Positions 2,061 through 31,780 are shown, counted from the stretch's first letter. The stretch: 64,000 nt of DNA from Alphaproteobacteria bacterium (GCA_023898725.1 CP060236.1:196920-260919), one strand, 5' to 3'. The notes: generated by a model not told the origin, from the sequence alone. Translations and numbers: made by a program.

Positions 2061-2075
2061 GTTCCCTAAGCTTTC

Positions 2076-2516: not shown

Positions 2517-2519
2517 AAA

Positions 2520-3257: not shown

Positions 3258-3440
3258 ATGTGCGACAAAGTAATTGTGTAATGGAAGCAGTATACGTGAA
3301 ATTACACGGTCGGACAAGAACAAGAGAGGGGTTCATAGCCGTTGTGGTTAATGATCGCAGCGAGAAAAATCTGCAGACCACATTTTTTATGCACAGCCTT
3401 TACGTTGGGGGAATCTTTCTTTACATTACAAATGGTTTGC

Positions 3441-6330: not shown

Positions 6331-6489
6331 GTGATGAACCTCTCAGGAACATGTATCAGGTAATACCCGTATTATCAGGAATTTCTTCCTGACTCAACAT
6401 GACTGTCCGTGGGTGAACAGCAAAAATAATACGCATAGGAGCGAGCAATCTTCTAAGGGTAGAATATGGGTAGAATATGATCCGCTTCG

Positions 6490-7866
6490 TTAAGCGCGTT
6501 TGCTGGGGTCTGCTTCTGCATGAAGAATGGTGGTTACCGTTGTTACGTCTTCGTCAAGAAGCGCTGCAATCTCAGCAGGAGTTTGTCCAGCACGCGCAAG
6601 TCGTGCCATCACTTCCCGGAGTTTCTCCTGCGCTCCTTCTTCTTTTCCTTCTACTCTTCCTTGCGCTAATCCTTCTTCCTTTCCACGGGCATGTTCTTCA
6701 GCCGTGTAGATTGAGAAACGATCATACTCAAGACCTTCAGCAACATATGCGTCGTGCACATCTTCGGGAAGGTTGGTGATCCGAATCATCTCAAAAGCCC
6801 TCTTGACAGCGGGGGTAGCGATGGTTGCCTCAACTTCAGTGGCACTCATAAGATGGGCACGCGTGAAGAACGTCAGCCAATCTTGTTGCTCACGGGAATC
6901 CACAACTGCAGGCGCATTAGCAAGCGAATACTGTACCAGTTCAATCCCATCAATAAAGCGCCGCGGCGTATGGAGTTGTTCTTGCATGCGATATCGTCGC
7001 ACGTATTGTTCGGGGGTGTCGCGCCAATGATCCCCGCGTACACCCGCCAAAATGTTAATCCCAATGACTTTCTTGAGATCACGCCAATGGTCCCCACGGC
7101 GCAGTTGATTGCCATAAAAGGCGGCCACATAGGCAAGCGCACGTTCATCCCAATAGTCCTGAGGGATGACTTGCGTTTCGATCAAGGCATATTCACCCGT
7201 TTCTAACTGGCAGACAAAGTCCATGGTGCCGTTATACCGGACCTTTGGAAAAGCATGAACAAGATCATCAAACGATGCCACCATGCGGCGCAACAACTGG
7301 GTGGCTTGGGGATGTAGGGCTAACTCATCTTCGAGGGTATCTTGTAAGTGAACCTGAACCTGACGGGCACCGTCAAGTTCAGCAACAGTTTGACGGGTGT
7401 CCGCCCGATGAAGGAGGGTGCGCAAGGTTTGCATTTCTTGCAAGGGGTTCATGTGGTCATCCAGGCGTTTGGATTCCACAATCCCGATGTCGGGCACAAA
7501 GGCATGCAAAAAAGAGGGACGCACCTCATCGTCGGCAAGCACCAACTTAAAGGGGGCATCAAAGGTTGGGACTGTATAATCCTGTTGGCGTCCGCGGGGA
7601 AAGGCACTGATACTGTCGCGGGTGTTATCTGGGCCTCTTTTGGGTTTGGTGGCAAACCCACGACCAGGAACAATGCCCACCCAAGGAGCTAAAACGCTTC
7701 TTGCACTTTTTGGTGGGGTCTTAGCCCAGAAAACAGCTCGGGTTGATCCTCCCGCTGCGCGTGATCCCACCAGACAGAGTTCTTCAGCAGCGACCTTCCA
7801 GATGGCATGTATGGGTGCGTGCAGAGAGCTTAAAGAGATAAAGGCAACAAGTAAAAACGGCATCAT
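6490..7866 (-). CDS. Rpn/YhgA-like PD-(D/E)XK recombination-promoting nuclease (PDDEXK_1 / TIGR01784-type putative transposase), paralog copy 1, with an N-terminal extension.
   Basis: The N-terminal block DAPFKLVLADDEVRPSFLHAFVPD resembles the E. coli YhgA DAVFKTFM...FLEIHLPE block. The catalytic-core pattern MDFVCQLETGEYALIETQ matches D...E.Q. The C-terminal helix has G-x3-G heptads (EGLAQGRVEGKEEGAQE). The tail is ARLARAGQTPAEIAALLDEDVTTVTTIL. The start is set at ATGATG (MMPFLL) with an upstream GGAGG; the longer TTG-initiated ORF reaches 7893. Confidence 0.75.
   Translation of the reverse strand: MMPFLLVAFISLSSLHAPIHAIWKVAAEELCLVGSRAAGGSTRAVFWAKTPPKSARSVLAPWVGIVPGRGFATKPKRGPDNTRDSISAFPRGRQQDYTVPTFDAPFKLVLADDEVRPSFLHAFVPDIGIVESKRLDDHMNPLQEMQTLRTLLHRADTRQTVAELDGARQVQVHLQDTLEDELALHPQATQLLRRMVASFDDLVHAFPKVRYNGTMDFVCQLETGEYALIETQVIPQDYWDERALAYVAAFYGNQLRRGDHWRDLKKVIGINILAGVRGDHWRDTPEQYVRRYRMQEQLHTPRRFIDGIELVQYSLANAPAVVDSREQQDWLTFFTRAHLMSATEVEATIATPAVKRAFEMIRITNLPEDVHDAYVAEGLEYDRFSIYTAEEHARGKEEGLAQGRVEGKEEGAQEKLREVMARLARAGQTPAEIAALLDEDVTTVTTILHAEADPSKRA
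6628..6687 (-). repeat. In-frame 24-bp coding repeat array (KEEGLAQG unit) in Rpn-like copy 1. It holds 1 full unit plus the RVEG half-unit.
   Basis: A direct tandem repeat of GGAAAAGAAGAAGGATTAGCGCAA is present on the coding strand. Its copy number differs among the five paralogs. Confidence 0.8.
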
Positions 7867-8209
7867 GGATAAAACCTCCAACAATTCACACAAAACCTAT
7901 CAAAAGATTCCCAAATAGTCAAGATTTCATACACGGGTGGCACCCTGAAGGATAGGTAGATAGCTTCATAGGATATGAGACAGATCGCATATCTGCAGCA
8001 TCTACACAAACGACACGCATCCATAAAGCAGATAGCAGCAACGTATCATTTTGAAGGATAGCTTTTTAGGCAGAGACAGGTGTTAGTGGCTTTGTCGCTC
8101 AAGAGTTTCTCCTGACCTTCTGTGCCATCATCCTTATATAAGCGTTCCTATCGTGTGGGAGAGAACAATCTTCTAAAGGTAGAATAAGGGTAGAATATGA
8201 CCCGCTTCG

Positions 8210-9598
8210 TTAAGCGCGTTTGCTGGAGTCTGCTTCTGCATGCAGAATGGTGGTTACCGTTGTTACGTCTTCGTCAAGAAGCGCTGCAATCTCAGCAGGA
8301 GTTTGTCCAGCACGCGTAAGTCGTGCCATCACTTCCCGGAGTTTCTCTTGCGCTCCTTCTTCCTTTCCTTGGGCTAATCCTTCTTCTTTTCCTTGCGCTA
8401 ATCCTTCTTCTTTTCCACGGGCATGTTCTTCAGCCGTGTAGATTGAGAAACGATCATACTCAAGACCTTCAGCAACATATGCGTCGTGCACATCTTCGGG
8501 AAGGTTAGTGATCCGAATCATCTCAAAAGCCCTCTTGACAGCGGGGGTAGCGATGGTTGCCTCAACTTCAGTGGCACTCATAAGATGGGCACGCGTGAAG
8601 AACGTCAGCCAATCTTGTTGCTCACGGGAATCCACAACTGCAGGCGCATTAGCAAGCGAATACTGTACCAGTTCAATCCCATCAATAAAGCGCCGCGGCG
8701 TATGGAGTTGTTCTTGCATGCGATATCGTCGCACGTATTGTTCGGGGGTGTCGCGCCAATGATCCCCGCGTACACCCGCCAAAATGTTAATCCCAATGAC
8801 TTTCTTGAGATCACGCCAATGGTCCCCACGGCGCAGTTGATTGCCATAAAAGGCGGCCACATAGGCAAGCGCACGTTCATCCCAATAGTCCTGAGGGATG
8901 ACTTGCGTTTCGATCAAGGCATATTCACCCGTTTCTAACTGGCAGACAAAGTCCATGGTGCCGTTATACCGGACCTTTGGAAAAGCATGAACAAGATCAT
9001 CAAACGATGCCACCATGCGGCGCAACAACTGGGTGGCTTGGGGATGTAGGGCTAACTCATCTTCGAGGGTATCTTGTAAGTGAACCTGAACCTGACGGGC
9101 ACCGTCAAGTTCAGCAACAGTTTGACGGGTGTCCGCCCGATGAAGGAGGGTGCGCAAGGTTTGCATTTCTTGCAAGGGGTTCATGTGGTCATCCAGGCGT
9201 TTGGATTCCACAATCCCGATGTCGGGCACAAAGGCATGCAAAAAAGAGGGACGCACCTCATCGTCGGCAAGCACCAACTTAAAGGGGGCATCAAAGGTTG
9301 GGACTGTATAATCCTGTTGGCGTCCGCGGGGAAAGGCACTGATACTGTCGCGGGTGTTATCTGGGCCTCTTTTGGGTTTGGTGGCAAACCCACGACCAGG
9401 AACAATGCCCACCCAAGGAGCTAAAACGCTTCTTGCACTTTTTGGTGGGGTCTTAGCCCAGAAAACAGCTCGGGTTGATCCTCCCGCTGCGCGTGATCCC
9501 ACCAGATAGAGTTCTTCAGCAGCGACCTTCCAGCTGGCATGTAGGGGTGCGTGCAGAGAGCTTAAAGAGATAAAGGCAACAAGTAAAAACGGCATCAT
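8210..9598 (-). CDS. Rpn/YhgA-like PD-(D/E)XK nuclease, paralog copy 2.
   Basis: It is about 99% identical to copy 1 in protein sequence. The C-terminal repeat region reads KEEGLAQGKEEGLAQGKEEGAQE (2 units, no RVEG). Confidence 0.75.
   Translation of the reverse strand: MMPFLLVAFISLSSLHAPLHASWKVAAEELYLVGSRAAGGSTRAVFWAKTPPKSARSVLAPWVGIVPGRGFATKPKRGPDNTRDSISAFPRGRQQDYTVPTFDAPFKLVLADDEVRPSFLHAFVPDIGIVESKRLDDHMNPLQEMQTLRTLLHRADTRQTVAELDGARQVQVHLQDTLEDELALHPQATQLLRRMVASFDDLVHAFPKVRYNGTMDFVCQLETGEYALIETQVIPQDYWDERALAYVAAFYGNQLRRGDHWRDLKKVIGINILAGVRGDHWRDTPEQYVRRYRMQEQLHTPRRFIDGIELVQYSLANAPAVVDSREQQDWLTFFTRAHLMSATEVEATIATPAVKRAFEMIRITNLPEDVHDAYVAEGLEYDRFSIYTAEEHARGKEEGLAQGKEEGLAQGKEEGAQEKLREVMARLTRAGQTPAEIAALLDEDVTTVTTILHAEADSSKRA
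8347..8419 (-). repeat. 24-bp coding repeat array, copy 2 (2 full units).
   Basis: Tandem copies of the 24-bp unit are visible. They are reverse-complemented on the + strand. Confidence 0.8.
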
Positions 9599-9716
9599 GG
9601 ATAAAACCTCCAACAATTCACACAAAACCTATCAAAAGATTCCCAAATAGTCAAGATTTCATGCGCTTTATGGGGAGAGGGCTTAGCTGTGTAGAGTCCT
9701 TTACAAGAACCCTCTT

Positions 9717-17109: not shown

Positions 17110-18522
17110 ATGATGCCGTTTTTACTTGTTGCCTTTATCTCTTTAAGCTCTCTGCACGCACCCCTACATGCCAGCTGGCATGCCAGCTGGAAGGTCGCTG
17201 CTGAAGAACTCTGTCTGGTGGGATCACGCGCAGCGGGAGGATCAACCCGAGCTGTTTTCTGGGCTAAGACCCCACCAAAAAGTGCAAGAAGCGTTTTAGC
17301 TCCTTGGGTGGGCATTGTTCCTGGTCGTGGGTTTGCCACCAAACCCAAAAGAGGCCCAGATAACACCCGCGACAGTATCAGTGCCTTTCCCCGCGGACGC
17401 CAACAGGATTATACAGTCCCAACCTTTGATGCCCCCTTTAAGTTGGTGCTTGCCGACGATGAGGTGCGTCCCTCTTTTTTGCATGCCTTTGTGCCCGACA
17501 TCGGGATTGTGGAATCCAAACGCCTGGATGACCACATGAACCCCTTGCAAGAAATGCAAACCTTGCGCACCCTCCTTCATCGGGCGGACACCCGTCAAAC
17601 TGTTGCTGAACTTGACGGTGCCCGTCAGGTTCAGGTTCACTTACAAGATACCCTCGAAGATGAGTTAGCCCTACATCCCCAAGCCACCCAGTTGTTGCGC
17701 CGCATGGTGGCATCGTTTGATGATCTTGTTCATGCTTTTCCAAAGGTCCGGTATAACGGCACCATGGACTTTGTCTGCCAGTTAGAAACGGGTGAATATG
17801 CCTTGATCGAAACGCAAGTCATCCCTCAGGACTATTGGGATGAACGTGCGCTTGCCTATGTGGCCGCCTTTTATGGCAATCAACTGCGCCGTGGGGACCA
17901 TTGGCGTGATCTCAAGAAAGTCATTGGGATTAACATTTTGGCGGGTGTACGCGGGGATCATTGGCGCGACACCCCCGAACAATACGTGCGACGATATCGC
18001 ATGCAAGAACAACTCCATACGCCGCGGCGCTTTATTGATGGGATTGAACTGGTACAGTATTCGCTTGCTAATGCGCCTGCAGTTGTGGATTCCCGTGAGC
18101 AACAAGATTGGCTGACGTTCTTCACGCGTGCCCATCTTATGAGTGCCACTGAAGTTGAGGCAACCATCGCTACCCCCGCTGTCAAGAGGGCTTTTGAGAT
18201 GATTCGGATCACCAACCTTCCCGAAGATGTGCACGACGCATATGTTGCTGAAGGTCTTGAGTATGATCGTTTCTCAATCTACACGGCTGAAGAACATGCC
18301 CGTGGAAAGGAAGAAGGATTAGCGCAAGGAAAGGAAGAAGGATTAGCGCAAGGAAGAGTAGAAGGAAAAGAAGAAGGAGCGCAGGAGAAACTCCGGGAAG
18401 TGATGGCACGACTTGCGCGTGCTGGACAAACCCCTGCTGAGATTGCAGCGCTTCTTGACGAAGACGTAACAACGGTAACCACCATTCTGCATGCAGAAGC
18501 AGACTCCAGCAAACGCGCTTAA
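17110..18522 (+). CDS. Rpn/YhgA-like PD-(D/E)XK nuclease, paralog copy 5.
   Basis: It carries a 12-bp in-frame duplication near the N-terminus (LHASWHASWKV; CATGCCAGCTGG twice). The C-terminal repeat reads KEEGLAQGKEEGLAQGRVEGKEEGAQE (2 units plus RVEG). Confidence 0.75.
   Translation: MMPFLLVAFISLSSLHAPLHASWHASWKVAAEELCLVGSRAAGGSTRAVFWAKTPPKSARSVLAPWVGIVPGRGFATKPKRGPDNTRDSISAFPRGRQQDYTVPTFDAPFKLVLADDEVRPSFLHAFVPDIGIVESKRLDDHMNPLQEMQTLRTLLHRADTRQTVAELDGARQVQVHLQDTLEDELALHPQATQLLRRMVASFDDLVHAFPKVRYNGTMDFVCQLETGEYALIETQVIPQDYWDERALAYVAAFYGNQLRRGDHWRDLKKVIGINILAGVRGDHWRDTPEQYVRRYRMQEQLHTPRRFIDGIELVQYSLANAPAVVDSREQQDWLTFFTRAHLMSATEVEATIATPAVKRAFEMIRITNLPEDVHDAYVAEGLEYDRFSIYTAEEHARGKEEGLAQGKEEGLAQGRVEGKEEGAQEKLREVMARLARAGQTPAEIAALLDEDVTTVTTILHAEADSSKRA
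18304..18387 (+). repeat. 24-bp coding repeat array, copy 5 (2 units plus RVEG).
   Basis: Seen directly. The units are GGAAAGGAAGAAGGATTAGCGCAA variants. Confidence 0.8.
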
Positions 18523-18568
18523 CGAAGCGGATCATATTCTACCCTTATTCTACCCTTAGAAGATTGTT

Positions 18569-18777
18569 CTCTCCCACACGATAGGAACGCTTATATAAGG
18601 ATGATGGCACAGAAGGTCAGGAGAAACTCTTGAGCGACAAAGCCACTAACGCCTGTCTCTGCCTAAAAAGCTATCCTTCAAAATGATACGTTGCTGCTAT
18701 CTGCTTTATGGATGCGTGTCGTTTGTGTAGATGCCGCAGATATGCGATCTGTCTCATATCCTATGAACCTCTACAAA
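18569..18777 (+). repeat. Orphan partial leader copy (repeat unit F) with no gene. It ends 80 bp upstream of acpS.
   Basis: It is identical to the first ~210 bp of the unit leader and diverges after CTATGAA. Confidence 0.8.
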
Positions 18778-22526: not shown

Positions 22527-23825
22527 CTAACTTCCCCGCTTGGACGAAAGGGGAGGTGTTTCTACAGGGGGATTCCCATCACCAAATTGGCGCAGGGCAT
22601 CATACTGTCTCTGATACTGTGCATGGGAACTCTTTGGTTGAATAGGATAAAACTCTCCTTGTGGAAAAGCTCTCTCTTCACCCGAGGGTGTAACCCCGGG
22701 GTTTGGCGTGTGGGAAACTTGTGGCGCTAGCGTTTTTCCCTGTTTTGCCCCAAACTGCTCAAATGTGTTTTGGTAGAATTGGGGATATTGCATGATTTCT
22801 TTCATGATCTCCCCCAGATCAAGATCCGACCAACTCATAACCTTACGCAACAAATAGTGTCCGGGATTATGCGGCTCATAAGCAGAAAAATACGCCACCA
22901 CATTTGCTAGCTGTTTGTATGCATCCTTACGGCTCATAAGGGGGCCCGAATGGTGTGCAAGAGGGGTAGCTTCTGAACCAGAATCACTGTGTGTGTCTGA
23001 CTGTGGTGTTTGTTTATCTGAAAGGGAAGAGTCGCATAAAATTGTGGTGCTTTTATCGGTTTTTTCATGGGGGATCGCTTTGTGAGGAATCGGACATATG
23101 TCACGAATAACCTCATCAATGAAGGAACCAAAATCGCTCAACACGCGCTTCAGCTTATATAAACTACCCTGGGTTTGTTGATGCTTTTCCCCCATGAGTG
23201 CATCAAGCTGCGCAAGGGTTTTTTGAGCAGATTCAAGATCTTTCTGAAACGCCTGATATACCACAGGGTTTGTGCGAGAAATTGCCGTGCGCAACCGCTT
23301 AAGGCGAACGCGATTACCCTCAACCTTTTGATTTGCGCTGACAATGGTCCACTCACCAAACGTGAAGGTATCGGATTCTTCCAGTTTTTCAGCAATGGAA
23401 AGTTCATACATGCGCTCGGGTATTTTTTCATTAACCCAATCAAGAACGGCAAGCCGAGCATCAATATCACCATCCTTCATATTCGGGAAAAAACTGTCCC
23501 AAAACATATCAAATATCATTCCAAATACCTTGAGTCCTGCAGAAAGTCCCCGGAGGCCATCTTTCTTGATGGCTGCCTCCATGAGCCAAGAAGCAACCTG
23601 CAAATCTTTCGATTTTTCTGCAAGAATTTGGCTACACAGATGAATTATTTTTGTCCAGTCTGCCCGTTTTAGTTCTATTTTCCAGACACCTTGGGGTAAG
23701 GTTGGGTCATCCTCTCTGCGTGCTTCTTGGATCACATCGTACTCATCACCATGACGAATATCTTCACCAGATGGTTTTTTTTCAGAAAGAGGTTTCAACA
23801 GAAGGGCGTAGTTTAGATCAGTCAT
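22527..23825 (-). CDS. tssA: Type VI secretion protein TssA (ImpA N-terminal domain family).
   Basis: The ImpA_N signature is present: LLKPLSEKKPSGEDIRHGDEYDVIQEARREDDPTLPQGVWKIELKRADWTKIIHLCSQILAEKSKDLQVASWLMEA. The 4-bp overlap with tssM (ATGA) indicates translational coupling. Confidence 0.8.
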   Translation of the reverse strand: MTDLNYALLLKPLSEKKPSGEDIRHGDEYDVIQEARREDDPTLPQGVWKIELKRADWTKIIHLCSQILAEKSKDLQVASWLMEAAIKKDGLRGLSAGLKVFGMIFDMFWDSFFPNMKDGDIDARLAVLDWVNEKIPERMYELSIAEKLEESDTFTFGEWTIVSANQKVEGNRVRLKRLRTAISRTNPVVYQAFQKDLESAQKTLAQLDALMGEKHQQTQGSLYKLKRVLSDFGSFIDEVIRDICPIPHKAIPHEKTDKSTTILCDSSLSDKQTPQSDTHSDSGSEATPLAHHSGPLMSRKDAYKQLANVVAYFSAYEPHNPGHYLLRKVMSWSDLDLGEIMKEIMQYPQFYQNTFEQFGAKQGKTLAPQVSHTPNPGVTPSGEERAFPQGEFYPIQPKSSHAQYQRQYDALRQFGDGNPPVETPPLSSKRGS

Positions 23826-26800
23826 TCACTGCCTCCTCCCTCCTGATCCAGGCCATCATCCGAGGGAATTACCGGTGATTGCGTGGGGAAGTTTAGCGAT
23901 GACAACGCCCGATCCAAGAGTCTTTTTTGGGCTTCTTTAGCAGAGTCTTCTGGGGATCCTTCACCCTTTTTTTCTAATAACTTAATGTCATAAATTATTG
24001 TGCTCACACCTTTTTGGGTGCTGGGAGGGGCACCGTTTGCCCCAGGTGTTTCAGGAAACATAATTGGAATATCAATTTTCACGGTCCAATGACGCTCGAC
24101 ACCTGCATTAGGAGTTACAATTTCCGCTTTGTTTTCTTTTAGAAGATGTAACATAGCCCACTGACCCTCATAAAAGAAAAGAGCTTTTGTTTCCTCCTCA
24201 ACTTCATAGGCGGCATTATCGTGATTGGCCGTTGGAGCGGGATATTTCTTGTTTGCCGTGCTTTTGACAAACTGTAATTCAAGATGGGTATTATCTCCTG
24301 AGTAATAATCAAATGTCTTGAGTTTGTCACCATTGCGAATGGCAGTCATGCTATCGTGCCCACCGGACGGATCCCCCACTCGAAAAATGCGGCGCATGAC
24401 AAAATTATTTTGTGTTTCCAGTTTTTTCTTTGCATCAACATCGACCTCAAATGTAAGACCGTCAATGTCTTCACCTTGGGCATTATTACCCCCTGCATGT
24501 AATAACCGGCGAGAAGCCCGCATAAACTTCAAGAAATGAAGAATCCTGGATTTTAATGGCGAACGTCGCGCTTCTTTTTCCAGAAGCTCATAATCATACG
24601 GTGTCAAGAGATCCATCAACTTATAGAATGTGTGCATGTCACGCAAAGAGGCCTCACGTTCGCCGGGCATATAGGCACGCTTGGTGAAGGGGAAGCGATC
24701 AGAAAGCGTACTATTAAAAAACGTTGCAAGGCGATTGTAGCGCTCTTTAAAGCGTCCTTGGGACAGACCGATGCAACGCTTACTCAAAAGTGTTTGGATT
24801 TTTCCACGACGCTCAAGAAAATAGTCTCCCGTTCCCTCAGAAACCTGCATGCCACAATTATTCATACTGACAAGATTCATATTTTTAATCACATACTCTT
24901 CCAAAGAGGCCACGGAATTCCCCGGTTTTTTTTGCGTATAGTAATCCAGTTGACCAAGGACACGCTCCCAGCGATGGATGGTTGGAAGATCACTGGGTGT
25001 ATCCTCCAGATTTGTTAAGCGCAAAAAATCAAGGAGCGGATGGGCCAGTTCTTTTGCAAAATAAGAGACACGCTGAATTTGAGCTGTAAGATATGTCTCA
25101 AGTCCCTCTTGATCATCAACAGAAAAGGCCCTATATCCAACATTTGTTTCCCCCTCCCACCAATCAAAATTTCCATTGCGTACGCTAAATAAATCTTGTG
25201 TGTCGAGCATTTTATCAACACGCCGCAGCATGTCATATGTTTGCGTAATGAGAAGCTCTGGAAGGCCCGTTTCTTTAAACTTAATGTCTCTGACGTTAAA
25301 AACTGAGAGAATTTTACGGAACTGTGGGGTAACAACCCGGATATTTTGCACCTGTGAATTAAGACGCTCTTGCGCGCCATAGCTCATAAACTGGACAGGC
25401 GCATCAAAAAAAGTCTGTGACTTTCCAAGAATACTAAGAATTTTCTTACGCAGGCTATTGGTTGCAACAAACTTGAGAATCGCTCGGAATTGGCCCTGAA
25501 TTTCCATCATGGTATTTTCAACAAAGTGGGTGTAGGTATCTATCAGTTTTTCAGCATTACCAAGGGTTACTGAATCCCAAACAAGAAGTTTTCCAGGAGG
25601 TACAGGACGTAATTTCTGTACAACCGCATCTTCAATCATAAACGTTTGCTTGAGAAAATCCTCCAAAACCTTATGAAGGTTTTTAAGACCATCGGAGACC
25701 CCCGCTCGCAGAACATTATTCGCACGCACAAAAAAATGTGACGAAAGAGGTGTTCGCATGGCAAGCAATTCTTCTTTAAACTTCTCAAATCTTGTGCGAA
25801 TCTTTTCTGAGACCTGACTGGCTATCGCAATGCCCAAAATTTCTGAGCTTGCAATAGTGGTCATAAGTTCGGAAAAATCCTCACCAGGGTTAAAAACAGA
25901 ACTCTCAATCCATTTGATGGTAGGCGATGAAAGATCTTGCATAACTACTTGCGTAAGCGCATACAAGTTTCGCAAATCTTTATCATCTGTTTCAAGCCCC
26001 CCTGGGCGGCTGAGCACATCAAGCTGATCGCGCAATTTGATGACCTGGGGTAGGTTTTTTTCTGTGTTAAATGAGGCTGCCATAAAGGCAGAAAGGCGCT
26101 GGTTCAGCTTTTCTTCTGCTTTTCGCCTAATCCCTTGTACGTGAACATTGATATCGGTCGTATCTGAAAGAGCTACACGGTAATAACTTTTATTCTGAAA
26201 TTTTTGCCCCGAAAAATCGCGGTCATACACATACCGAATAAGCTTAAGAACATTATCAATGCTCTGGCTCACTTCAATGTCGTTGTAGAGAGCAATATGC
26301 TTTTCGTATTCGCTTATTTCTGCCACATAATTGCGTAAGTTCCGAAATTCTGGTAATTTTATAGGATCAATGCTTGCGGACACTTCATGTTCAAAGTCTA
26401 CCTCTAAGTGACTCAACGATGTAATAACATCCCCTTTTTTGCGCAATTCATTGTGAATCGCCGCCAGAATAATATCATCATAGGCCACAGTCAAAGAATC
26501 ATTAATCCGATCCTGCAACGAAACAAACCAGGAAGAAGGGATAAAAAGACTCCACGTTTTTGTTGTTGAAACGCCCCCCATCAGATTAATAATTGAGCGC
26601 GTTTGTTCATTAAGAAAGATATTCCGTTGGGCTTCTTTACGAGGTCCTTGCAATTTATGAACGCCATCAACTGCGCGGTGAATCTGATGCAACAATGGAT
26701 ATGTCAGCTTGTGTGTGTTTGTCAGATTTTCGTTCACCCATAAAAGCCCTATGAACCACCCAAGACACACAACAGCCATCATACCTTTAGCAAAATTCAA

Positions 26801-28126
26801 GGCCCGGTTAGTAGAGACAAGAATATGTAAAATCGGTTGCGCAAGATTTGCCTCACGGAAAATTTTGTACTCAAAAAGATGCGTTACAAAAGCAATTTTT
26901 CTTGGGCCAGCATTCATGATAGGTGGGGATGATACCGAAACACTCTGGGGGGGTTCTGGTGAGGGTTGCTGGTTGTTCGTCACTGTATCAGCATGTGAAT
27001 CAGCGGCAATATTCTTACGAGGAGGTATTACAGTATTTGTAGCGCTTGCGTGTTCATCGCCTGTAAAATAGACACCCCGCAAAAAGAAAGATTCATGATA
27101 GGCGCTATCGCGAAAAATATTATCCATGTACAGGCGCAAGTTTTTTTCGACGGACTCAACACTTTCACGAAACAGGAAAGTCCCTTCCCGCGTTTGTGCA
27201 TCACCATCTTGCGTAAAAACTAACCCTCGCAGCTTTTGGACCATATAACGCATATGGTGGAAAAAGTCATAGCCCCACTGGGGCGAGTAGCTAACATCAA
27301 GAGCATAAGGACATGACCAACCAAATATTTCCTTGCGGCGCTCGGGGGGTATTTCGTGTGCGAACTCTTTAAAGCCCTCCAAGTAGTCAGACTTTGTCAC
27401 AACAACATACACAGGAACTTTCATTTGCAGTTGTGCTTGCAGCTGCCATAACCGCTGATGAATCTGTTTTGCTCGGTCTGTTAACTCATCGTGTGTCAAA
27501 ACATTGGCGCCGACAAGTTCATCAGCAGGGATTGTTAGAATAATACCGTCTAGAGGTCGGCGAGGGCGATGGCGGGCAATGAGATTGAGAAGGTATTTCC
27601 AACCCTTATCGTCACCGTGTGGTGTCTTTTTTCCGACAAGAAGATCGCCTGCAGTATCCAGGATAATCCCGCGATCGAAAAACCACCACTGGCAATAACT
27701 ATTAGACATGCTTTCTGCAAAGTCGGGGCGTCCGATTGGAAGTTCAAGATTTACATGGTTCAAAAACTCTGTTTTTCCAGATCCTTGAGCGCCAATCATC
27801 AAATACCAAGGGATTTCATACTTAAAATTATTCCCTGGGATATAGGTTTTGAGAACCTCAATAGCCTTGTCAAAAGATAATGCTAAGTCATCACTGGCAC
27901 TCCCCTTAAAGAACCCAATAAATCTTTCCCAGAGAGATTTTTGTGGTTCAGGGGGTGTTTCATCTTCTTTGGGAATGGGTGGAGCCAGAGCCCGACGTTT
28001 AGCCGCACGTTTGAGCGCCAACGATGCGCTCACAATAACACCTATGGCGATAATCAATGCCAAAAGCATTGACCCCCAAATCGCATACACAAGATATGGT
28101 GAAAGTTGCTCCAGGAGGGCTATCAT
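23822..28126 (-). CDS. tssM: Type VI secretion membrane-complex protein TssM (IcmF).
   Basis: The 1434-aa product has N-terminal TM helices and a Walker A P-loop (MIGAQGSGKTEFL). The IcmF-related central and C-terminal domains are present. The start overlaps the tssL stop. Confidence 0.9.
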   Translation of the reverse strand: MIALLEQLSPYLVYAIWGSMLLALIIAIGVIVSASLALKRAAKRRALAPPIPKEDETPPEPQKSLWERFIGFFKGSASDDLALSFDKAIEVLKTYIPGNNFKYEIPWYLMIGAQGSGKTEFLNHVNLELPIGRPDFAESMSNSYCQWWFFDRGIILDTAGDLLVGKKTPHGDDKGWKYLLNLIARHRPRRPLDGIILTIPADELVGANVLTHDELTDRAKQIHQRLWQLQAQLQMKVPVYVVVTKSDYLEGFKEFAHEIPPERRKEIFGWSCPYALDVSYSPQWGYDFFHHMRYMVQKLRGLVFTQDGDAQTREGTFLFRESVESVEKNLRLYMDNIFRDSAYHESFFLRGVYFTGDEHASATNTVIPPRKNIAADSHADTVTNNQQPSPEPPQSVSVSSPPIMNAGPRKIAFVTHLFEYKIFREANLAQPILHILVSTNRALNFAKGMMAVVCLGWFIGLLWVNENLTNTHKLTYPLLHQIHRAVDGVHKLQGPRKEAQRNIFLNEQTRSIINLMGGVSTTKTWSLFIPSSWFVSLQDRINDSLTVAYDDIILAAIHNELRKKGDVITSLSHLEVDFEHEVSASIDPIKLPEFRNLRNYVAEISEYEKHIALYNDIEVSQSIDNVLKLIRYVYDRDFSGQKFQNKSYYRVALSDTTDINVHVQGIRRKAEEKLNQRLSAFMAASFNTEKNLPQVIKLRDQLDVLSRPGGLETDDKDLRNLYALTQVVMQDLSSPTIKWIESSVFNPGEDFSELMTTIASSEILGIAIASQVSEKIRTRFEKFKEELLAMRTPLSSHFFVRANNVLRAGVSDGLKNLHKVLEDFLKQTFMIEDAVVQKLRPVPPGKLLVWDSVTLGNAEKLIDTYTHFVENTMMEIQGQFRAILKFVATNSLRKKILSILGKSQTFFDAPVQFMSYGAQERLNSQVQNIRVVTPQFRKILSVFNVRDIKFKETGLPELLITQTYDMLRRVDKMLDTQDLFSVRNGNFDWWEGETNVGYRAFSVDDQEGLETYLTAQIQRVSYFAKELAHPLLDFLRLTNLEDTPSDLPTIHRWERVLGQLDYYTQKKPGNSVASLEEYVIKNMNLVSMNNCGMQVSEGTGDYFLERRGKIQTLLSKRCIGLSQGRFKERYNRLATFFNSTLSDRFPFTKRAYMPGEREASLRDMHTFYKLMDLLTPYDYELLEKEARRSPLKSRILHFLKFMRASRRLLHAGGNNAQGEDIDGLTFEVDVDAKKKLETQNNFVMRRIFRVGDPSGGHDSMTAIRNGDKLKTFDYYSGDNTHLELQFVKSTANKKYPAPTANHDNAAYEVEEETKALFFYEGQWAMLHLLKENKAEIVTPNAGVERHWTVKIDIPIMFPETPGANGAPPSTQKGVSTIIYDIKLLEKKGEGSPEDSAKEAQKRLLDRALSSLNFPTQSPVIPSDDGLDQEGGGSE

Positions 28127-28911
28127 GGGGAACGCCCCTTTAATGCTTCGTGTAAGCGCACAATATCATCCGATTTTACAAGCAAGGGGCGTGTGTTGTG
28201 ATGCCAAATTTGATACGAGGCCAGAAGAAGCGTCAAGACCATGACAAAGAAAACAACAATCCACGGACGAAAGTTGTGTAACGACTTTGATTCTCCACCC
28301 TCAAGGGTGTTTACATAAGCACTGACAAAAAGAGGTTTTTTCACATTCTCAATTTCAGGTTCTTCATGGTGAATGAATACGTACAATTGGCGACGATAGT
28401 GATGCAAGTCCATCAGGTTGTCATGACCACGAAATCGCCCCAAAAACCCAAGACCTAAGGCCATTAAATATAAGTATCCAATATCCGCACGCATCGCATC
28501 ACGCTTCTGGAGAAAATCATCAAGATTCGTGAAAAATTTTTCACCGGCCGTGTGGCTGCCAAAAACTTGATTTTCCAACAAGTTTTTTTCCCATGTTTTC
28601 TGGCCTGCCCAAACATGATGGATAAAAACTTCATCTGCATACGCGGCCATGATGAACTGGGCCTCACGATAGAATTGCGAAGCAAACTCTCCACCAAAAC
28701 GCGGGGCCTCCAAAGCCTGTCGGTCAAGCGTTTCCTTCAGGTTACGTGCCGTCACAACAGCCATGCTGGCGGCACACGGCCCTGGATAATCCTCGGAAGG
28801 AATCCACGCCTGTTGATCGATTAGCTTTTTGTAATAAGCAACCTTTGCCACAAACTCCTCAAAGAAGCGAATAACAAAAGATGTTTCTGCATTTTTTAGC
28901 TGCTTATTCAC
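28123..28911 (-). CDS. tssL: Type VI secretion membrane-complex protein TssL (DotU family), with no peptidoglycan-binding extension.
   Basis: The 262-aa product has a DotU-like cytoplasmic domain and a single C-terminal TM helix (IVVFFVMVLTLLLASY). It lies in the TssL position upstream of tssM. Confidence 0.7.
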   Translation of the reverse strand: MNKQLKNAETSFVIRFFEEFVAKVAYYKKLIDQQAWIPSEDYPGPCAASMAVVTARNLKETLDRQALEAPRFGGEFASQFYREAQFIMAAYADEVFIHHVWAGQKTWEKNLLENQVFGSHTAGEKFFTNLDDFLQKRDAMRADIGYLYLMALGLGFLGRFRGHDNLMDLHHYRRQLYVFIHHEEPEIENVKKPLFVSAYVNTLEGGESKSLHNFRPWIVVFFVMVLTLLLASYQIWHHNTRPLLVKSDDIVRLHEALKGRSP

Positions 28912-29067
28912 TTTATTTAAGCCTATTTCCGTTTATTAGATAGCATTCACCATCTTCAGTTAAGCGGATTTGTGTAAAATTTTAGTTAAATTTCTCGAAC
29001 ATTCCTAAGGATTTTTTATACGCTTAAGGCTTGAAGTCTTTCTATACGTTTTTTCTCAAAAAAGATT

Positions 29068-30402
29068 TTATGCGCTTGAGTCCTTTTGTTTTTTTGGTAC
29101 GTACATAACAATCTCAACAGGGCGCAGATCATCACTATCTGACGCATTGAATATTTGAAGAACATCATCACCATCGATCATTTTTTCACTCACATTAACA
29201 GCAAATAAAACCATTCCCTTTGCAGGCATTAATTGCAAGCTTTCTACCTGTTCGAGCAATTTACGTTCTGCCCCACGCACGCGCATATCTCTTGCGGCTT
29301 CAGCATAATTTTGAGAGGCAATGACAGCGTCACTGACCCACTCCGCTAACTGTTTTTCACTCATCATTACATTGCCCCGGGCACCTAAAATGAGCGTATC
29401 ATTCACAGCGAGACCCTTGAGATTAAGCTCAAAGAGAGATTCCTTAAGAAGAAAGGGAACAACAGAATATCCTTCTTGAATGCGATCAATCATTGAATTC
29501 ATAAAAGCAAGAACCTCTGTGAAGCTTCGCTGCAAATCAAGGTGATCATATCCGTGAAATGTAGGGGGAATTTGCCCAGGATCAATTCCCGCAATGGTGC
29601 CCGCACACTGACACAAAAGCTGATACACAGCGTAAGGGTGATTCGCTTGATTCAAAACTGCCTCAAGCGGAAGAAGTGTTCCGGACAAAATGCGCACCGC
29701 ATCTTCGCTTTCTCTGGATAATAATCCTCGTGAATTTGCGCGCATTCGCTCAACCAAAAATGCTATTTTTTTACGCAAGCGCTTGGCCAATCCAGCAAAA
29801 TTTTTATGCACAGGGTTTTCAGAACCAAGAAGCAAAAAAGGAGGCAAATAGGATGTTGCAACGTATGCATTGGAACGAAACTCGATCCGCATCAGCGGAA
29901 GAGAAACAAACCCCGCCGGCGGTTCTTTTCCTAAAACAAGCCGTAAATTAGGACGCAAGCGCGGCACGTGAATCGCATTTTCACCCGTATTTTCATCCAG
30001 TACATTTTTTACTTCGTAAGAAACATAACGCGGCAACTCTGCATCTACGCTTGCATTCCCATACCCCCTTCGATAAGGGGGTATGCACAGGTATACCGTT
30101 TGGGGTGAGGCGATAAGTGCATCTTGGTGCGGGACTAAGTCTATTTCTAAACCTTCTTTTGCCCGCGCAACTGAAACGGGACAACCATCTGGCATGATTG
30201 CCTCCAAAGCCTGAACGCGCAAAGCCCCACTCATCAAAAGAATGTTATCTACCTCAATGTGTGCAACACCCCAGTGAAAGGGATCATTGTTGCGCAGATG
30301 AAACCAAATTTCCTCCTGCTTCTGATGATCCGATGCCTGAAAATGCTGTGGTGACAAAAGCATACCTTCGTGCCACTGTATCAAGTCAAGATCATACTTC
30401 AT
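29068..30402 (-). CDS. tssK: Type VI secretion baseplate protein TssK.
   Basis: The N-terminal signature is WHEGMLLSPQHFQASD. The length (444 aa) and the position adjacent to tssL are typical. Confidence 0.8.
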   Translation of the reverse strand: MKYDLDLIQWHEGMLLSPQHFQASDHQKQEEIWFHLRNNDPFHWGVAHIEVDNILLMSGALRVQALEAIMPDGCPVSVARAKEGLEIDLVPHQDALIASPQTVYLCIPPYRRGYGNASVDAELPRYVSYEVKNVLDENTGENAIHVPRLRPNLRLVLGKEPPAGFVSLPLMRIEFRSNAYVATSYLPPFLLLGSENPVHKNFAGLAKRLRKKIAFLVERMRANSRGLLSRESEDAVRILSGTLLPLEAVLNQANHPYAVYQLLCQCAGTIAGIDPGQIPPTFHGYDHLDLQRSFTEVLAFMNSMIDRIQEGYSVVPFLLKESLFELNLKGLAVNDTLILGARGNVMMSEKQLAEWVSDAVIASQNYAEAARDMRVRGAERKLLEQVESLQLMPAKGMVLFAVNVSEKMIDGDDVLQIFNASDSDDLRPVEIVMYVPKKQKDSSA

Positions 30403-30412
30403 ATGTTTCTCC

Positions 30413-30988
30413 TTATTTATTCATTAAGCTGAGATATTCGCCATCTTTCATCAGGAGTAATTTCAAGTGTTCCCCTGATCCTAACTGCAATCGATGCGTT
30501 CCAGTTTTGTCGTAGTTCACAAAAATAAAACCAGCAATCGGCTTTGCGCCTGTGCGCGGAATTGGCTTATCCACAGGACCTCCGCCAACGACAACCACCT
30601 CATGAAACACTTCAATTCGTTGAGGAAAGTCACGCAAAAGCTGTTCATAGCGATCAAAGAATGTTTTCGCATCCATGCTCCGCACCTGACTCACAGGGCC
30701 ATCCTTATAAATGATAGCGATACCAACCCACAAAGGGCTTCCGTCATTAGCGTCTGGTTGCGGAACGATTGTCAGTTTGTCAAGCTCTACAGCAGGCCCT
30801 GCTGGGGTTCCGTCATCTCCCTTGCCGGTGGGTGCTCCCGGGGTTCCCATAAACTGAGCAAATGGGTTAAGTCCCCCACTCAGCAATTGTAGTGCGGGAC
30901 AACCTCCTAAAGAGAGAAATGCGGACAACAACATTCCTGTACGAAAACAATACCAAATCTTATCGCGCAATGTTTGTGTGCTAATCAT
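30413..30988 (-). CDS. tssJ: Type VI secretion outer-membrane lipoprotein TssJ.
   Basis: The lipobox is LSLGGC, followed by a ~170-aa transthyretin-like region. The gene lies immediately upstream of tssK. Confidence 0.6.
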   Translation of the reverse strand: MISTQTLRDKIWYCFRTGMLLSAFLSLGGCPALQLLSGGLNPFAQFMGTPGAPTGKGDDGTPAGPAVELDKLTIVPQPDANDGSPLWVGIAIIYKDGPVSQVRSMDAKTFFDRYEQLLRDFPQRIEVFHEVVVVGGGPVDKPIPRTGAKPIAGFIFVNYDKTGTHRLQLGSGEHLKLLLMKDGEYLSLMNK

Positions 30989-31610
30989 TAAGATTTACCA
31001 CTATTTTTAAGTTGTTAGGAATGACCGTGACTGTTGCCATGCGATGGCCAATCAAACGAAGCTTATAAGCAAACTGATTAGCAGCCACATAGTCTTCAAA
31101 AACCCCCACACGCAAATCATAGATTATTCGGGTGATGGAGCTACTACTTTGCATCTGACTGCGTACAGCATAAACACCATACCCTAAACGACGCAGTGTA
31201 GCCATCATTTGTACAGCTGATACCCTATCTCCTACCGTTTTTAGTTTTACAGAGAACTTCCCGGCATCACCCTCGGTGGGTATTCGTGCAGAAGCTGTTT
31301 TTTCACTTTGCTCTTCGATCTGGACAGCCATAGTGGCCTCTGGCGATAACGCCGCACTAGCTGCTGAATCCGGGGCTGATGCGCCCGATGCATCAGCAGC
31401 CGAATCTTGCGGAGCACCAGAAGGTGCACCAGGCTCCCCACCCGATGGCATCACGGAGGCAGGAGGATTGCTTGCTACTGAAACTGTCGCCCCATAAGAA
31501 CTTCCCCCCTGAGAAACCATCACATATGACGTTATGAATCCTGCAGTGAACGATAAAAAGCTCAACAAGATTAGACCAAAAATAATACCAATTAGTGATA
31601 TTTGGTTCAT
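30981..31610 (-). CDS. Membrane-anchored SPOR-domain (peptidoglycan-binding) protein. It is the first gene of the T6SS operon.
   Basis: An N-terminal TM helix (IGIIFGLILLSFLSFTAGFI) is followed by an S/A/P-rich linker. The C-terminal ~80 aa have a SPOR-like pattern (VYAVRSQMQSS..., VGVFEDYVAANQFAYKL). The stop overlaps the tssJ start by 8 nt. Confidence 0.5.
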   Translation of the reverse strand: MNQISLIGIIFGLILLSFLSFTAGFITSYVMVSQGGSSYGATVSVASNPPASVMPSGGEPGAPSGAPQDSAADASGASAPDSAASAALSPEATMAVQIEEQSEKTASARIPTEGDAGKFSVKLKTVGDRVSAVQMMATLRRLGYGVYAVRSQMQSSSSITRIIYDLRVGVFEDYVAANQFAYKLRLIGHRMATVTVIPNNLKIVVNLND

Positions 31611-31780
31611 CGCAAAAAAAACTACCTCCCTAGGTATCAGTCTGATACTATCACGGAAGATTGCTTTATATCAACATAGGTTACTCATGGTATAGGTTTT
31701 GCAGCGGGGCAGAACGTCACCACATAAGCCCACCCCTAAACCCATGCGCGCTCTACTGATCAAACCCAAGGAGAAAAAAC

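What the first reader, a model, noticed from the sequence alone, without database searches (positions are those of the whole stretch)
22527..31610. Stand-alone T6SS membrane-complex/baseplate subcluster (SPOR-tssJ-tssK-tssL-tssM-tssA) with no sheath, tube, spike or ClpV genes nearby
**Observation.** Six translationally coupled genes on the minus strand encode only TssJ, TssL, TssM, TssK, TssA and an accessory protein. Stop and start codons overlap at three junctions.
- The flanks are sodB on one side and an MFS transporter plus ald on the other. Therefore tssB/C, hcp, vgrG, tssE/F/G and clpV are not within 9 kb on either side.

**Interpretation.** Either the T6SS is split across distant loci, or this is a remnant or a repurposed membrane complex. 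Both possibilities are worth knowing for a Rhizobiales symbiont- or pathogen-like genome.
Basis: partly seen in the sequence, partly recalled or inferred. Interest (0 to 1): 0.55.

Follow-up and report, generated by a model that had tools for sequence, protein, structure and literature searches.

The report
One piece of a scattered T6SS
This six-gene operon is the membrane-anchor and baseplate part of a type VI secretion system whose genes are typically scattered around the chromosome in Holosporales-like intracellular bacteria, so its isolation is a published lineage trait and not an anomaly.

Summary
Window 22527-31610 (minus strand) carries six intact, tightly packed genes: SPOR-like protein, TssJ-like lipoprotein, TssK, TssL, TssM and TssA. 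Three junctions have overlapping stop and start codons. No sheath, tube, spike, TssE/F/G or ClpV gene lies anywhere in the 64-kb window.

The organism is not a Rhizobiales. It is a 1.1-Mb, 45% GC 'Alphaproteobacteria bacterium' MAG whose nearest relatives are Holosporales-like endosymbionts such as Caedimonas, Caedibacter, Odyssella, Finniella and Paracaedibacter.

In that clade the same operon stands alone in every locus I examined, while tssB-tssC-hcp sits elsewhere among housekeeping genes. Midha et al. [quoted passage not shown] There, lip3-tssK-tssL-tssM-tssA already forms its own 'left' operon, and free-living relatives keep the tail genes adjacent.

Sequence divergence fits purifying selection: dN matches housekeeping genes and dS is saturated.

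I could not reach the rest of this chromosome, so the presence of the other loci in this genome is inferred, not shown.

Verdict: an ordinary new member of a known kind. The conserved SPOR accessory gene and the TssJ identity of the lipoprotein are small additions.

The parts
30981..31610 (-). First gene of the operon: a 209-aa bitopic protein. It has an N-terminal TM anchor (residues ~1-32), a low-complexity Ala/Ser/Pro linker and a C-terminal SPOR-like (peptidoglycan-binding) domain.
   Evidence: The window copy alone has no Pfam SPOR hit. However, 28 of 30 positional orthologues in relatives match PF05036 SPOR, best E 1.2e-12. The family profile also hits the solved SPOR domains of CwlC, DamX, DedD and FtsN.
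30413..30988 (-). TssJ-type outer-membrane lipoprotein (191 aa), orthologue of P. aeruginosa Lip3/TssJ3.
   Evidence: The lipobox L-G-G-C has an invariant Cys30 across 38 orthologues, including P. aeruginosa Lip3 at 28% identity. The gene sits directly upstream of tssK in nearly all loci of this T6SS type. Profile-profile comparison with canonical TssJ from E. coli, Vibrio and Ralstonia gives probability 83.7% and E 8e-6. Pfam T6SS-SciN is hit only weakly, by 2 of 38 orthologues.
29068..30402 (-). TssK, the baseplate subunit that links the baseplate to the membrane complex (444 aa).
   Evidence: PF05936 and TIGR03353 score 211 bits, above the cutoff. It is 100% identical to GenBank USO01627.1, annotated as TssK.
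28912..29067 (-). 156-nt tssK-tssL spacer, the only sizeable gap inside the operon.
   Evidence: Sequence read. No function was tested. It could hold an internal promoter, or the true tssL start could lie upstream.
28123..28911 (-). TssL (DotU family), short form (262 aa). It has a single C-terminal TM segment and no peptidoglycan-binding extension.
   Evidence: PF09850 scores 86 bits. TIGR03349 scores 77 bits, below its cutoff. The TM segment is at 211-237.
23822..28126 (-). TssM (IcmF family) of the H3/i4b type (1434 aa). It has an N-terminal hydrophobic segment, a cytoplasmic NTPase domain with Walker A GAQGSGKT, a TM segment at 445-464 and a periplasmic region of about 970 aa.
   Evidence: PF14331 scores 186 bits. 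TIGR03348 matches residues 24-473 only. The protein aligns with Azospirillum TssM over residues 4-1240. In a full-length alignment that includes the P. aeruginosa H3 TssM (21% identity), conserved columns run to residue 1418. The periplasmic part matches neither canonical TssM profiles nor PDB sequences. GenBank calls it a hypothetical protein.
22527..23825 (-). TssA, the cap/assembly-priming protein (432 aa), with a Pro/Gln-rich C-terminal extension of about 85 aa.
   Evidence: PF06812 and TIGR03363 score 241 bits, above the cutoff. PDB matches are the 6HS5 N-terminal domains (E 7e-32) and the 6H8E/6H8F C-terminal ring domain at residues 291-347.
31645..31674 (-). Sigma-70-like hexamer pair in the sodB/operon divergent intergenic region. 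It is a candidate operon promoter.
   Evidence: Consensus scan (TTGATA-16/18-GATAGT/TAGTAT). The number of such sites in the region is not above the shuffled expectation, so this is only a candidate.

Best explanation
**What it is.** This is the membrane-complex and baseplate-docking operon of a complete but genomically scattered type VI secretion system of the P. aeruginosa H3 (i4b-like) type.
- TssJ (outer-membrane lipoprotein), TssL and TssM build the envelope-spanning channel.
- TssK docks the baseplate onto that channel.
- TssA primes and caps sheath and tube polymerisation.
- The SPOR-domain protein most likely tethers the complex to peptidoglycan, because this TssL lacks a peptidoglycan-binding domain of its own.

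**Where the rest is expected.** The sheath, tube, wedge and spike genes are expected at three or more other places on the same 1.1-Mb chromosome. That is the arrangement in Holosporales-like endosymbionts: tssB-tssC-hcp(-tssE), tssF-tssG and vgrG.

**How it arose.** In free-living relatives the K-L-M-A unit is already a separate transcription unit lying beside the tail genes. In this clade, genome rearrangement has moved the units apart.

**Shown versus inferred.**
- Shown: gene identities, operon anatomy, isolation within the window, conservation of the isolated operon across the clade, and separate tail loci in relatives.
- Inferred: that this particular genome still holds the tail loci, that the machine fires, and the role of the SPOR protein.
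For: **Gene identities.**

**Same isolated operon in relatives.** The six-gene operon recurs in relatives with 36-59% TssK identity, often beside sodB/GDH or ald as here. These include Odyssella acanthamoebae, Ca. Caedibacter acanthamoebae, Caedimonas, Finniella, Paracaedibacteraceae and a MAG labelled Nucleicultricaceae.

**Split versus unsplit clusters.**
- Of 80 species-representative loci, 60 carry K, L, M and A.
- 36 of those have no tail gene in the locus. They are Holosporales-like apart from a few truncated contigs.
- 24 have tssB-tssC-(hcp)-tssE-tssF directly adjacent. These are Desulfobacterales, Gemmatimonadota, Azospirillum and other non-Holosporales.
- The closest complete clusters place K-L-M-A next to B-C-Hcp-E-F-G-ClpV-VgrG: Azospirillum and P. 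aeruginosa H3-T6SS.
- The H3 'left operon' starts with lip3 (PMC3804575).

**Separate tail loci in clade members.**
- tssB-tssC plus an Hcp-like gene lies between housekeeping genes in a Holosporales MAG.
- The same is seen in metagenome and Logan contigs.
- Three TssB-C proteins sit on contigs of exactly the same length as the contigs carrying three TssK homologues: 113812, 50110 and 225852 bp. This suggests that both loci share a contig more than 10 kb apart.

**Literature.**
- PMC8163844 states the four-locus convention and reports transcription in Bodocaedibacter.
- PMC11909080 says the T6SS is conserved in almost all Holosporineae genomes, including the smallest.

**Selection.** Against the 59%-identity relative, dN for the T6SS genes is 0.36-0.66. 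Housekeeping genes give 0.30-0.68. Synonymous sites are saturated.
Against: - I never saw tssB, tssC or any other tail gene from this genome.
- Two searches with clade TssC queries returned saturated top-120 lists, and none came from the 1,107,460-bp contig. That result is uninformative, not negative.
- The TssM periplasmic region has no detectable match to canonical TssM C-terminal domains.
- The window's own SPOR-like domain is below Pfam threshold.
- No experiment on any Holosporales T6SS is known to me or cited in the review.
Confidence: 0.85

Rival explanations
1. Remnant. This lineage has lost the sheath, tube and spike genes, and the six-gene operon is a not-yet-degraded leftover of a dead T6SS.
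For: - The genome is small (1.1 Mb).
- The review notes that Holospora species lost the system altogether.
- Further fragmentation occurs in relatives. In L009, SPOR-tssJ-tssK is followed directly by polA.
- No tail gene from this genome was retrieved.
Against: - All six ORFs are full length with no frameshift or internal stop.
- Walker A, the lipobox and the TM segments are intact.
- Overlapping stop/start junctions are kept.
- dN is no higher than in valS, sodB or GDH across a divergence where synonymous sites are saturated.
- A reduced genome would not be expected to keep 9 kb of useless coding sequence.
- The sister lineage keeps the identical operon.
Confidence: 0.07
2. Repurposed envelope complex. 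TssJ-L-M, with TssK, TssA and a SPOR protein, works without a contractile tail, for example as an envelope-spanning or septal peptidoglycan-associated machine.
For: - A SPOR-domain gene is a conserved first gene of the operon in the clade.
- The TssM periplasmic domain differs from the canonical one.
- IcmF and DotU homologues do work outside T6SS, in the Legionella type IVB system. This point rests on established knowledge.
Against: - TssK and TssA have no known role other than docking the baseplate and priming the tail.
- Clade members with the same operon do carry the tail genes (PMC8163844).
- Non-Holosporales relatives of the same type have the tail genes adjacent.
Confidence: 0.04
3. The IcmF/DotU pair belongs to a type IVB (Dot/Icm-like) secretion system and not to a T6SS.
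For: Weak NCBIfam hits to IcmF_IVB (25.9 bits) and IcmH_DotU_IVB (29.4 bits).
Against: - Those scores are far below the cutoffs of 1000 and 50 bits.
- The T6SS models score much higher.
- TssK, TssA and a TssJ-type lipoprotein are co-encoded.
- No Dot/Icm gene is in the window.
Confidence: 0.01

Closest known systems
Split T6SS of Holosporales-like endosymbionts (Bodocaedibacteraceae, Paracaedibacteraceae, Caedimonadaceae), as described by Midha et al. 2021 (PMC8163844)
   Same: - There is a stand-alone [tssK-tssL-tssM-tssA] unit among housekeeping genes.
- Orthologues in Ca. Caedibacter acanthamoebae, Caedimonas, Odyssella, Finniella and Paracaedibacteraceae show 33-44% TssK identity.
- They share the same gene order, the same upstream lipoprotein and, usually, the SPOR gene.
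   Different: - This MAG belongs to a separate, deep lineage. Its nearest TssK relatives are at 76% and 59% identity and come only from unnamed assemblies.
- Its SPOR protein is shorter (209 aa against about 290-410 aa) and more diverged.
- The paper does not list the SPOR gene or the upstream lipoprotein as part of the unit, and it places a tssJ-like gene elsewhere.
- The other loci were not seen for this genome.
Pseudomonas aeruginosa H3-T6SS 'left operon' lip3-hsiJ3(tssK)-dotU3-icmF3-hsiA3(tssA)-sfa3 (PMC3804575)
   Same: - The gene order is the same: lipoprotein-tssK-tssL-tssM-tssA as one transcription unit.
- TssM is long, and only its N-terminal part matches standard models.
- TssL is the short form.
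- The lipoprotein is homologous (28% identity).
   Different: - In P. aeruginosa the tail operon is divergently adjacent, and a sigma-54 activator gene (sfa3) follows tssA.
- Here there is no adjacent tail operon and no sfa gene.
- A SPOR gene has been added in front.
Azospirillum brasilense chromid T6SS (NZ_CP059450.1), the closest free-living complete cluster in the collections searched
   Same: TssK is 36% identical, TssL 32%, TssA 30%, and TssM aligns over about 1240 residues. The K-L-M-A order is the same.
   Different: - VgrG-ClpV-TssG-TssF-TssE-Hcp-TssC-TssB lie within 10 kb.
- No SPOR-length gene was seen upstream of its lipoprotein gene; only a 261-aa high-GC ORF that was not scanned against Pfam.
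Legionella Dot/Icm IcmF-DotU (type IVB accessory pair)
   Same: Distant homology of TssM to IcmF and of TssL to DotU.
   Different: The scores are far below the family cutoffs. TssK, TssA and TssJ are co-encoded here, and no Dot/Icm genes are present.

Membership tests
T6SS membrane complex (TssJ-TssL-TssM) | TssM: IcmF-family inner-membrane protein with TM segments, a cytoplasmic NTPase domain and a large periplasmic domain | tested here: met
   PF14331 scores 186 bits, above its cutoff. Walker A is GAQGSGKT. Hydrophobic segments lie at 8-42 and 445-464, followed by about 970 periplasmic residues. The N-terminal 370 columns match canonical TssM at 100% hhalign probability. The equivalog model TIGR03348 scores 244 bits, below its 388-bit cutoff.
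T6SS membrane complex (TssJ-TssL-TssM) | TssM C-terminal periplasmic domain of the canonical kind (IcmF_C, the part that binds TssJ) | tested here: inconclusive
   There is no Pfam, PDB-sequence or profile-profile match to canonical C-terminal domains. The region is nevertheless conserved to residue ~1418 across the H3/i4b type, including P. aeruginosa TssM3. No structure could be predicted, because the protein exceeds the size limit and no admissible deep alignment was available.
T6SS membrane complex (TssJ-TssL-TssM) | TssL: DotU-family cytoplasmic domain with a C-terminal TM anchor | tested here: met
   PF09850 scores 86 bits against a cutoff of 27. The TM segment is at 211-237. TIGR03349 scores 77 bits, below its 90-bit cutoff.
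T6SS membrane complex (TssJ-TssL-TssM) | TssJ: small outer-membrane lipoprotein encoded with tssK/L/M | tested here: met
   The lipobox has an invariant Cys. The gene sits immediately upstream of tssK. It is homologous to P. aeruginosa Lip3. hhalign against canonical TssJ gives 83.7% probability and E 8e-6. No Pfam T6SS-SciN hit is found for the window protein itself. The fold was not confirmed, because the single-sequence AlphaFold model was unusable at pLDDT 34.
T6SS baseplate and assembly factors | TssK and TssA equivalogs | tested here: met
   TIGR03353 scores 211 bits against a cutoff of 100. TIGR03363 scores 241 bits against a cutoff of 161. TssA matches the PDB entries 6HS5 and 6H8E/6H8F.
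Complete T6SS (13 core components) | TssB, TssC, Hcp, TssE, TssF, TssG, VgrG (and ClpV) encoded in the same genome | not testable with these tools
   These genes are absent from the 64-kb window and from the ~0.7 kb and ~3.5 kb that Logan contigs add beyond its right and left ends. The rest of the 1.1-Mb contig could not be read. Two TssC searches gave saturated lists without this contig. In clade relatives the genes are present at separate loci (PMC8163844).
Holosporales-type split T6SS (Midha et al. 2021) | [tssK-tssL-tssM-tssA] as an isolated unit among housekeeping genes, orthologous to that of named Holosporales | tested here: met
   
H3-T6SS / i4b-like subtype | lip-tssK-tssL-tssM-tssA unit with a long divergent TssM. 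Closest complete clusters are of the P. aeruginosa H3 and Azospirillum kind. | tested here: met
   The subtype label 'i4b' comes from my own knowledge of published T6SS phylogenies. No tree was built here.
SPOR-domain proteins (PF05036) | C-terminal SPOR fold that binds denuded peptidoglycan | tested here: inconclusive
   The window protein is below Pfam threshold. Even so, 28 of 30 positional orthologues match SPOR (best E 1.2e-12), and the family profile hits solved SPOR domains. Binding was not tested.
Type IVB secretion IcmF/DotU | Equivalog-level match to IcmF_IVB / IcmH_DotU_IVB, with Dot/Icm neighbours | tested here: not met
   The scores are 25.9 bits against a cutoff of 1000 and 29.4 bits against a cutoff of 50. 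There are no Dot/Icm genes in the window.

The most novel reading that the evidence does not exclude
This 1.1-Mb genome may have lost the contractile tail genes while keeping, under purifying selection, a SPOR-anchored TssJ-L-M/TssK/TssA envelope complex that now does something other than firing a sheath. A milder version, which I think is likely true, is that a SPOR-domain peptidoglycan anchor is a conserved and so far undescribed accessory of the membrane complex in this whole clade.
Probability: 0.06. Interest if true: 0.65.

Novelty: new member of a known kind. Interest (0 to 1): 0.15.

Why it matters
- For annotation: a lone tssJKLMA block in a Holosporales-like genome should not be read as a degenerate system. 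The T6SS is the main candidate host-interaction machine of these endosymbionts (PMC11909080).
- PGAP labels this TssM, the lipoprotein and the SPOR protein as hypothetical or gives them no T6SS name.
- Two small points may help specialists:
  - The gene directly upstream of tssK is a Lip3/TssJ-type lipoprotein. This bears on the review's remark that some core components seem to be missing.
  - A SPOR-domain gene is a conserved first gene of the operon in the clade.
- Neither point changes the overall picture.

Tried and rejected
**Finding tssC in the same genome.**
- The plan was to use the 'longest_contig = 1107460' flag in homologue searches.
- That needed a clade TssC as query. I obtained one by scanning metagenome contigs with an AT-biased TssC motif.
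- From the hits I picked an isolated tssB-tssC-hcp trio, L206.
- Searches with L206 TssC and with L129 TssC both returned saturated top-120 lists (at least 71% and at least 65% identity). Neither list held a protein from this contig, so the result is uninformative.

**Other routes that failed.**
- The species-representative genome collection does not contain this MAG. The best hit has 76% TssK identity on a 2.3-kb contig.
- Extending the window through Logan contigs added only tolB-pal-mgtE on one side and a hydrolase gene after dnaJ on the other.
- A pilot scan of viral contigs with a TssC motif gave three chance hits.
- A single-sequence AlphaFold model of the lipoprotein had pLDDT 34 and was unusable, so no fold search was run.
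- A profile of the lipoprotein family against PDB sequences gave no TssJ hit.
- TssM against PDB sequences gave no hit.
- dN/dS could not be computed as a ratio, because dS is saturated even against the 76%-identity TssK. Only dN is reported.
- The SRA run numbers were not found in the paper library.

**Rejected reading.** A type IVB IcmF/DotU assignment was rejected.

Full report
**Observation**

The region 22527-31610 carries six minus-strand ORFs of 209, 191, 444, 262, 1434 and 432 aa.

Pfam and NCBIfam identify four of them.
- TssK: TIGR03353 scores 211 bits against a cutoff of 100.
- TssL/DotU: PF09850 scores 86 bits.
- TssM: PF14331 scores 186 bits. TIGR03348 covers residues 24-473 only and falls below its cutoff.
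- TssA: TIGR03363 scores 241 bits against a cutoff of 161.

TssA also matches solved TssA structures. These are the 6HS5 N-terminal domains and the 6H8E/6H8F C-terminal ring domain.

The lipoprotein-TssK gap is 10 nt and contains GGAG. The TssK-TssL gap is 156 nt.

The flanks are sodB and NAD-glutamate dehydrogenase on one side, and an MFS transporter and alanine dehydrogenase on the other.

The remaining ORFs of the window over 150 aa encode housekeeping genes, a five-copy mobile-element-like gene, a phage-type lysozyme and several ORFs without a family match; 62417-63571 was not scanned but carries DnaJ domains.

tblastn found no tail or wedge gene anywhere in the 64 kb. I used the eight tail and wedge proteins of the closest complete cluster and clade-specific TssB, TssC, Hcp-like and TssE.

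**Organism**

The window has about 45% GC. Its proteins are GenBank USO01624-USO01627 from a 1,107,460-bp contig of a 'MAG: Alphaproteobacteria bacterium'.

The nearest TssK homologues are at 76% and 55-60% identity, all from unnamed assemblies. After those come proteins from Caedimonas, Ca. Caedibacter acanthamoebae, a MAG labelled Nucleicultricaceae, Finniella, Paracaedibacteraceae and Odyssella.

This is a Holosporales-like reduced genome, not a Rhizobiales.

**The two unnamed genes**

*The 191-aa protein is a TssJ-type lipoprotein.*
- It has a lipobox (LGGC). Its Cys is invariant in 38 positional orthologues.
- Those orthologues include P. aeruginosa Lip3 (PA2364), the first gene of the H3-T6SS left operon.
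- A profile of this family matches canonical TssJ from E. coli, Vibrio and Ralstonia with 83.7% probability and E 8e-6.
- Pfam's TssJ model is hit only weakly, by 2 of 38 members.
- A single-sequence structure model was useless.

*The 209-aa protein is SPOR-like.*
- It has an N-terminal membrane anchor.
- Its C-terminal domain is below Pfam threshold on its own.
- However, 28 of 30 positional orthologues match the SPOR domain, best E 1.2e-12.
- The family profile also hits the solved SPOR domains of CwlC, DamX, DedD and FtsN.

**What type of T6SS**

The closest free-living complete cluster in the collections is on an Azospirillum brasilense chromid. There, VgrG-ClpV-TssG-TssF-TssE-Hcp-TssC-TssB lies within 10 kb of TssK-TssL-TssM(1378 aa)-TssA.

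A P. aeruginosa record holds the H3-T6SS with the same layout. In it, lip3-tssK-dotU-tssM-tssA-sfa3 is divergent from tssB-tssC-hcp-tssE-F-G-clpV...vgrG-ywqK. TssC from the two organisms is 67% identical, against 46% to other subtypes.

Sana et al. 2013 describe the H3 locus as two divergent operons, the 'left' one starting at lip3 (PMC3804575).

The six-gene block here is therefore the homologue of a unit that is already transcribed separately in the ancestral arrangement.

The long TssM, with only an N-terminal match to standard models, is a trait of the whole type. The Azospirillum TssM behaves the same way, and conserved columns run to residue ~1418 of the alignment with the P. aeruginosa protein. 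Its periplasmic part did not match canonical TssM in a shallow profile-profile comparison.

**Is isolation unusual?**

No. It is a published clade trait, supported by three lines of evidence.

*Contig look-ups.* They show the same operon with no tail gene within 10 kb in several relatives.
- A 59%-identity relative, also next to sodB and GDH.
- Odyssella acanthamoebae.
- Three further MAGs or contigs.

*Scan of one genome per species.* It returned 80 loci.
- 60 loci have K, L, M and A.
- In 36 of these, no tail gene lies in the locus. They are Holosporales-like apart from a few truncated contigs.
- In 24, tssB-tssC-(hcp)-tssE-tssF follow directly. All 24 are from other lineages, such as Desulfobacterales, Gemmatimonadota, Azospirillum and Rhodospirillales.

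*Literature.* Midha et al. [quoted passage not shown] They also report that the genes are transcribed in Bodocaedibacter (PMC8163844). A 2025 review calls the T6SS conserved in almost all Holosporineae genomes, including the smallest (PMC11909080).

**Tail loci in relatives, checked here**

I scanned metagenome contigs with an AT-biased TssC motif.
- It yielded an isolated tssB-tssC-Hcp-like trio, L206.
- It also yielded L129, a TssB-C fusion followed by an Hcp-like gene, TssE and then uvrB.

The L206 TssC retrieves proteins named Holosporales bacterium, Finniella inopinata and Paracaedibacter sp.. One of these sits in a MAG between aspS/aroA and an ABC transporter, as tssB-tssC-181 aa.

Searching with the L129 TssC found TssB-C fusion proteins. 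Their contigs have exactly the lengths of the contigs that carry three of my TssK homologues: 113812, 50110 and 225852 bp. For the 50,110-bp contig, the tssBC-hcp-tssE locus occupies 26,779-48,662 without any K-L-M-A gene. Equal contig lengths are an inference of identity, not proof.

**This genome**

I could not read beyond the window, and neither TssC search listed a protein from the 1,107,460-bp contig. Both lists were saturated with closer relatives of the queries, so this says nothing either way.

The indirect evidence for a working system is as follows.
- All six ORFs are intact.
- Walker A, the lipobox and the TM segments are present.
- Gene coupling is retained.
- Against the 59% relative, dN is 0.36-0.40 for tssJ/K/L/M and 0.66 for the SPOR gene and tssA. 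The comparators are valS at 0.35, sodB at 0.30 and GDH at 0.68. Synonymous sites are saturated.

**Mechanism**

Steps 1-4 are inferred from established knowledge of T6SS assembly. Step 5 is inferred from domain content only.
1. TssJ, TssL and TssM form the envelope-spanning complex.
2. TssK connects it to the TssE/F/G-VgrG baseplate.
3. TssA primes and caps Hcp tube and TssB/C sheath growth.
4. Contraction drives VgrG and effectors out, here presumably into the eukaryotic host.
5. The short TssL has no peptidoglycan-binding domain, so the SPOR protein is a plausible peptidoglycan anchor.

**Verdict**

This is an ordinary new member of a known and published arrangement.

The remnant reading (confidence about 0.07) and the repurposed reading (about 0.04) remain open only because the rest of the chromosome was out of reach.

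Noticed in passing
window 6439-18770 (genes at 6490-7893 -, 8210-9625 -, 11926-13317 -, 15315-16766 +, 17083-18522 +): There are five 97-100% identical copies of a ~1.5-1.7-kb element. Each encodes a ~465-480-aa PD-(D/E)XK 'PDDEXK_2' transposase-like protein. Three copies are in one orientation and two in the other, around an unannotated 380-aa gene and a phage-type lysozyme. This recent expansion could promote exactly the kind of rearrangement that scatters gene clusters.
   Followed up: partly
L129:3356-5251(-); L221-L223:10001-11884(+); proteins P0241-P0266, P0144, P0151: In one branch of the Holosporales-like clade, TssB and TssC are fused into a single 627-650-aa sheath protein carrying VipA plus VipB domains. 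It is followed by an Hcp-like gene and tssE. I do not know whether this fusion has been described.
   Followed up: partly
L206:805-1392(-), L217:11491-12036(+), L129:2720-3304(-): The 181-195-aa gene after tssC in clade members has no Pfam hit, or only a weak T6SS_HCP hit (E 0.005). It is probably the divergent tube protein. This may explain why the 2025 review says a core component seems to be missing.
   Followed up: partly
L009:8569-15168: In one groundwater MAG (TssK 44% identical), SPOR-tssJ-tssK is followed directly by polA and an AFG1 ATPase. There the K-L-M-A unit is itself broken up. Five further loci also showed TssK without L, M or A nearby.
   Followed up: partly
window 56069-59188 (+): A 1039-aa ORF (1024 aa as called) with no Pfam match lies in a stretch of strong AT skew (0.22-0.25), between mutS and an Rsm22-like methyltransferase gene. 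It could be a secreted or effector protein. It was not examined.
   Followed up: no
window 22527-22790 (TssA residues ~347-432): TssA carries a Pro/Gln-rich C-terminal extension of about 85 residues beyond the ring-forming domain. The 357-395-aa TssA proteins called in more distant relatives are too short to hold it, while the 429-aa one of the 59% relative is as long.
   Followed up: no
window 1254-3323 and L216: The unannotated 268-aa ORF at 1254-2060 sits in a tolQ-tolR-(this gene)-tolB-pal arrangement, so it is probably TolA.
   Followed up: no
window 23822-28126: GenBank annotates this TssM as 'hypothetical protein H6849_01055', while its neighbours are named TssK and TssA. The standard TssM equivalog model misses the H3-type TssM. 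The P. aeruginosa copy likewise gets no tssM gene symbol from PGAP.
   Followed up: yes
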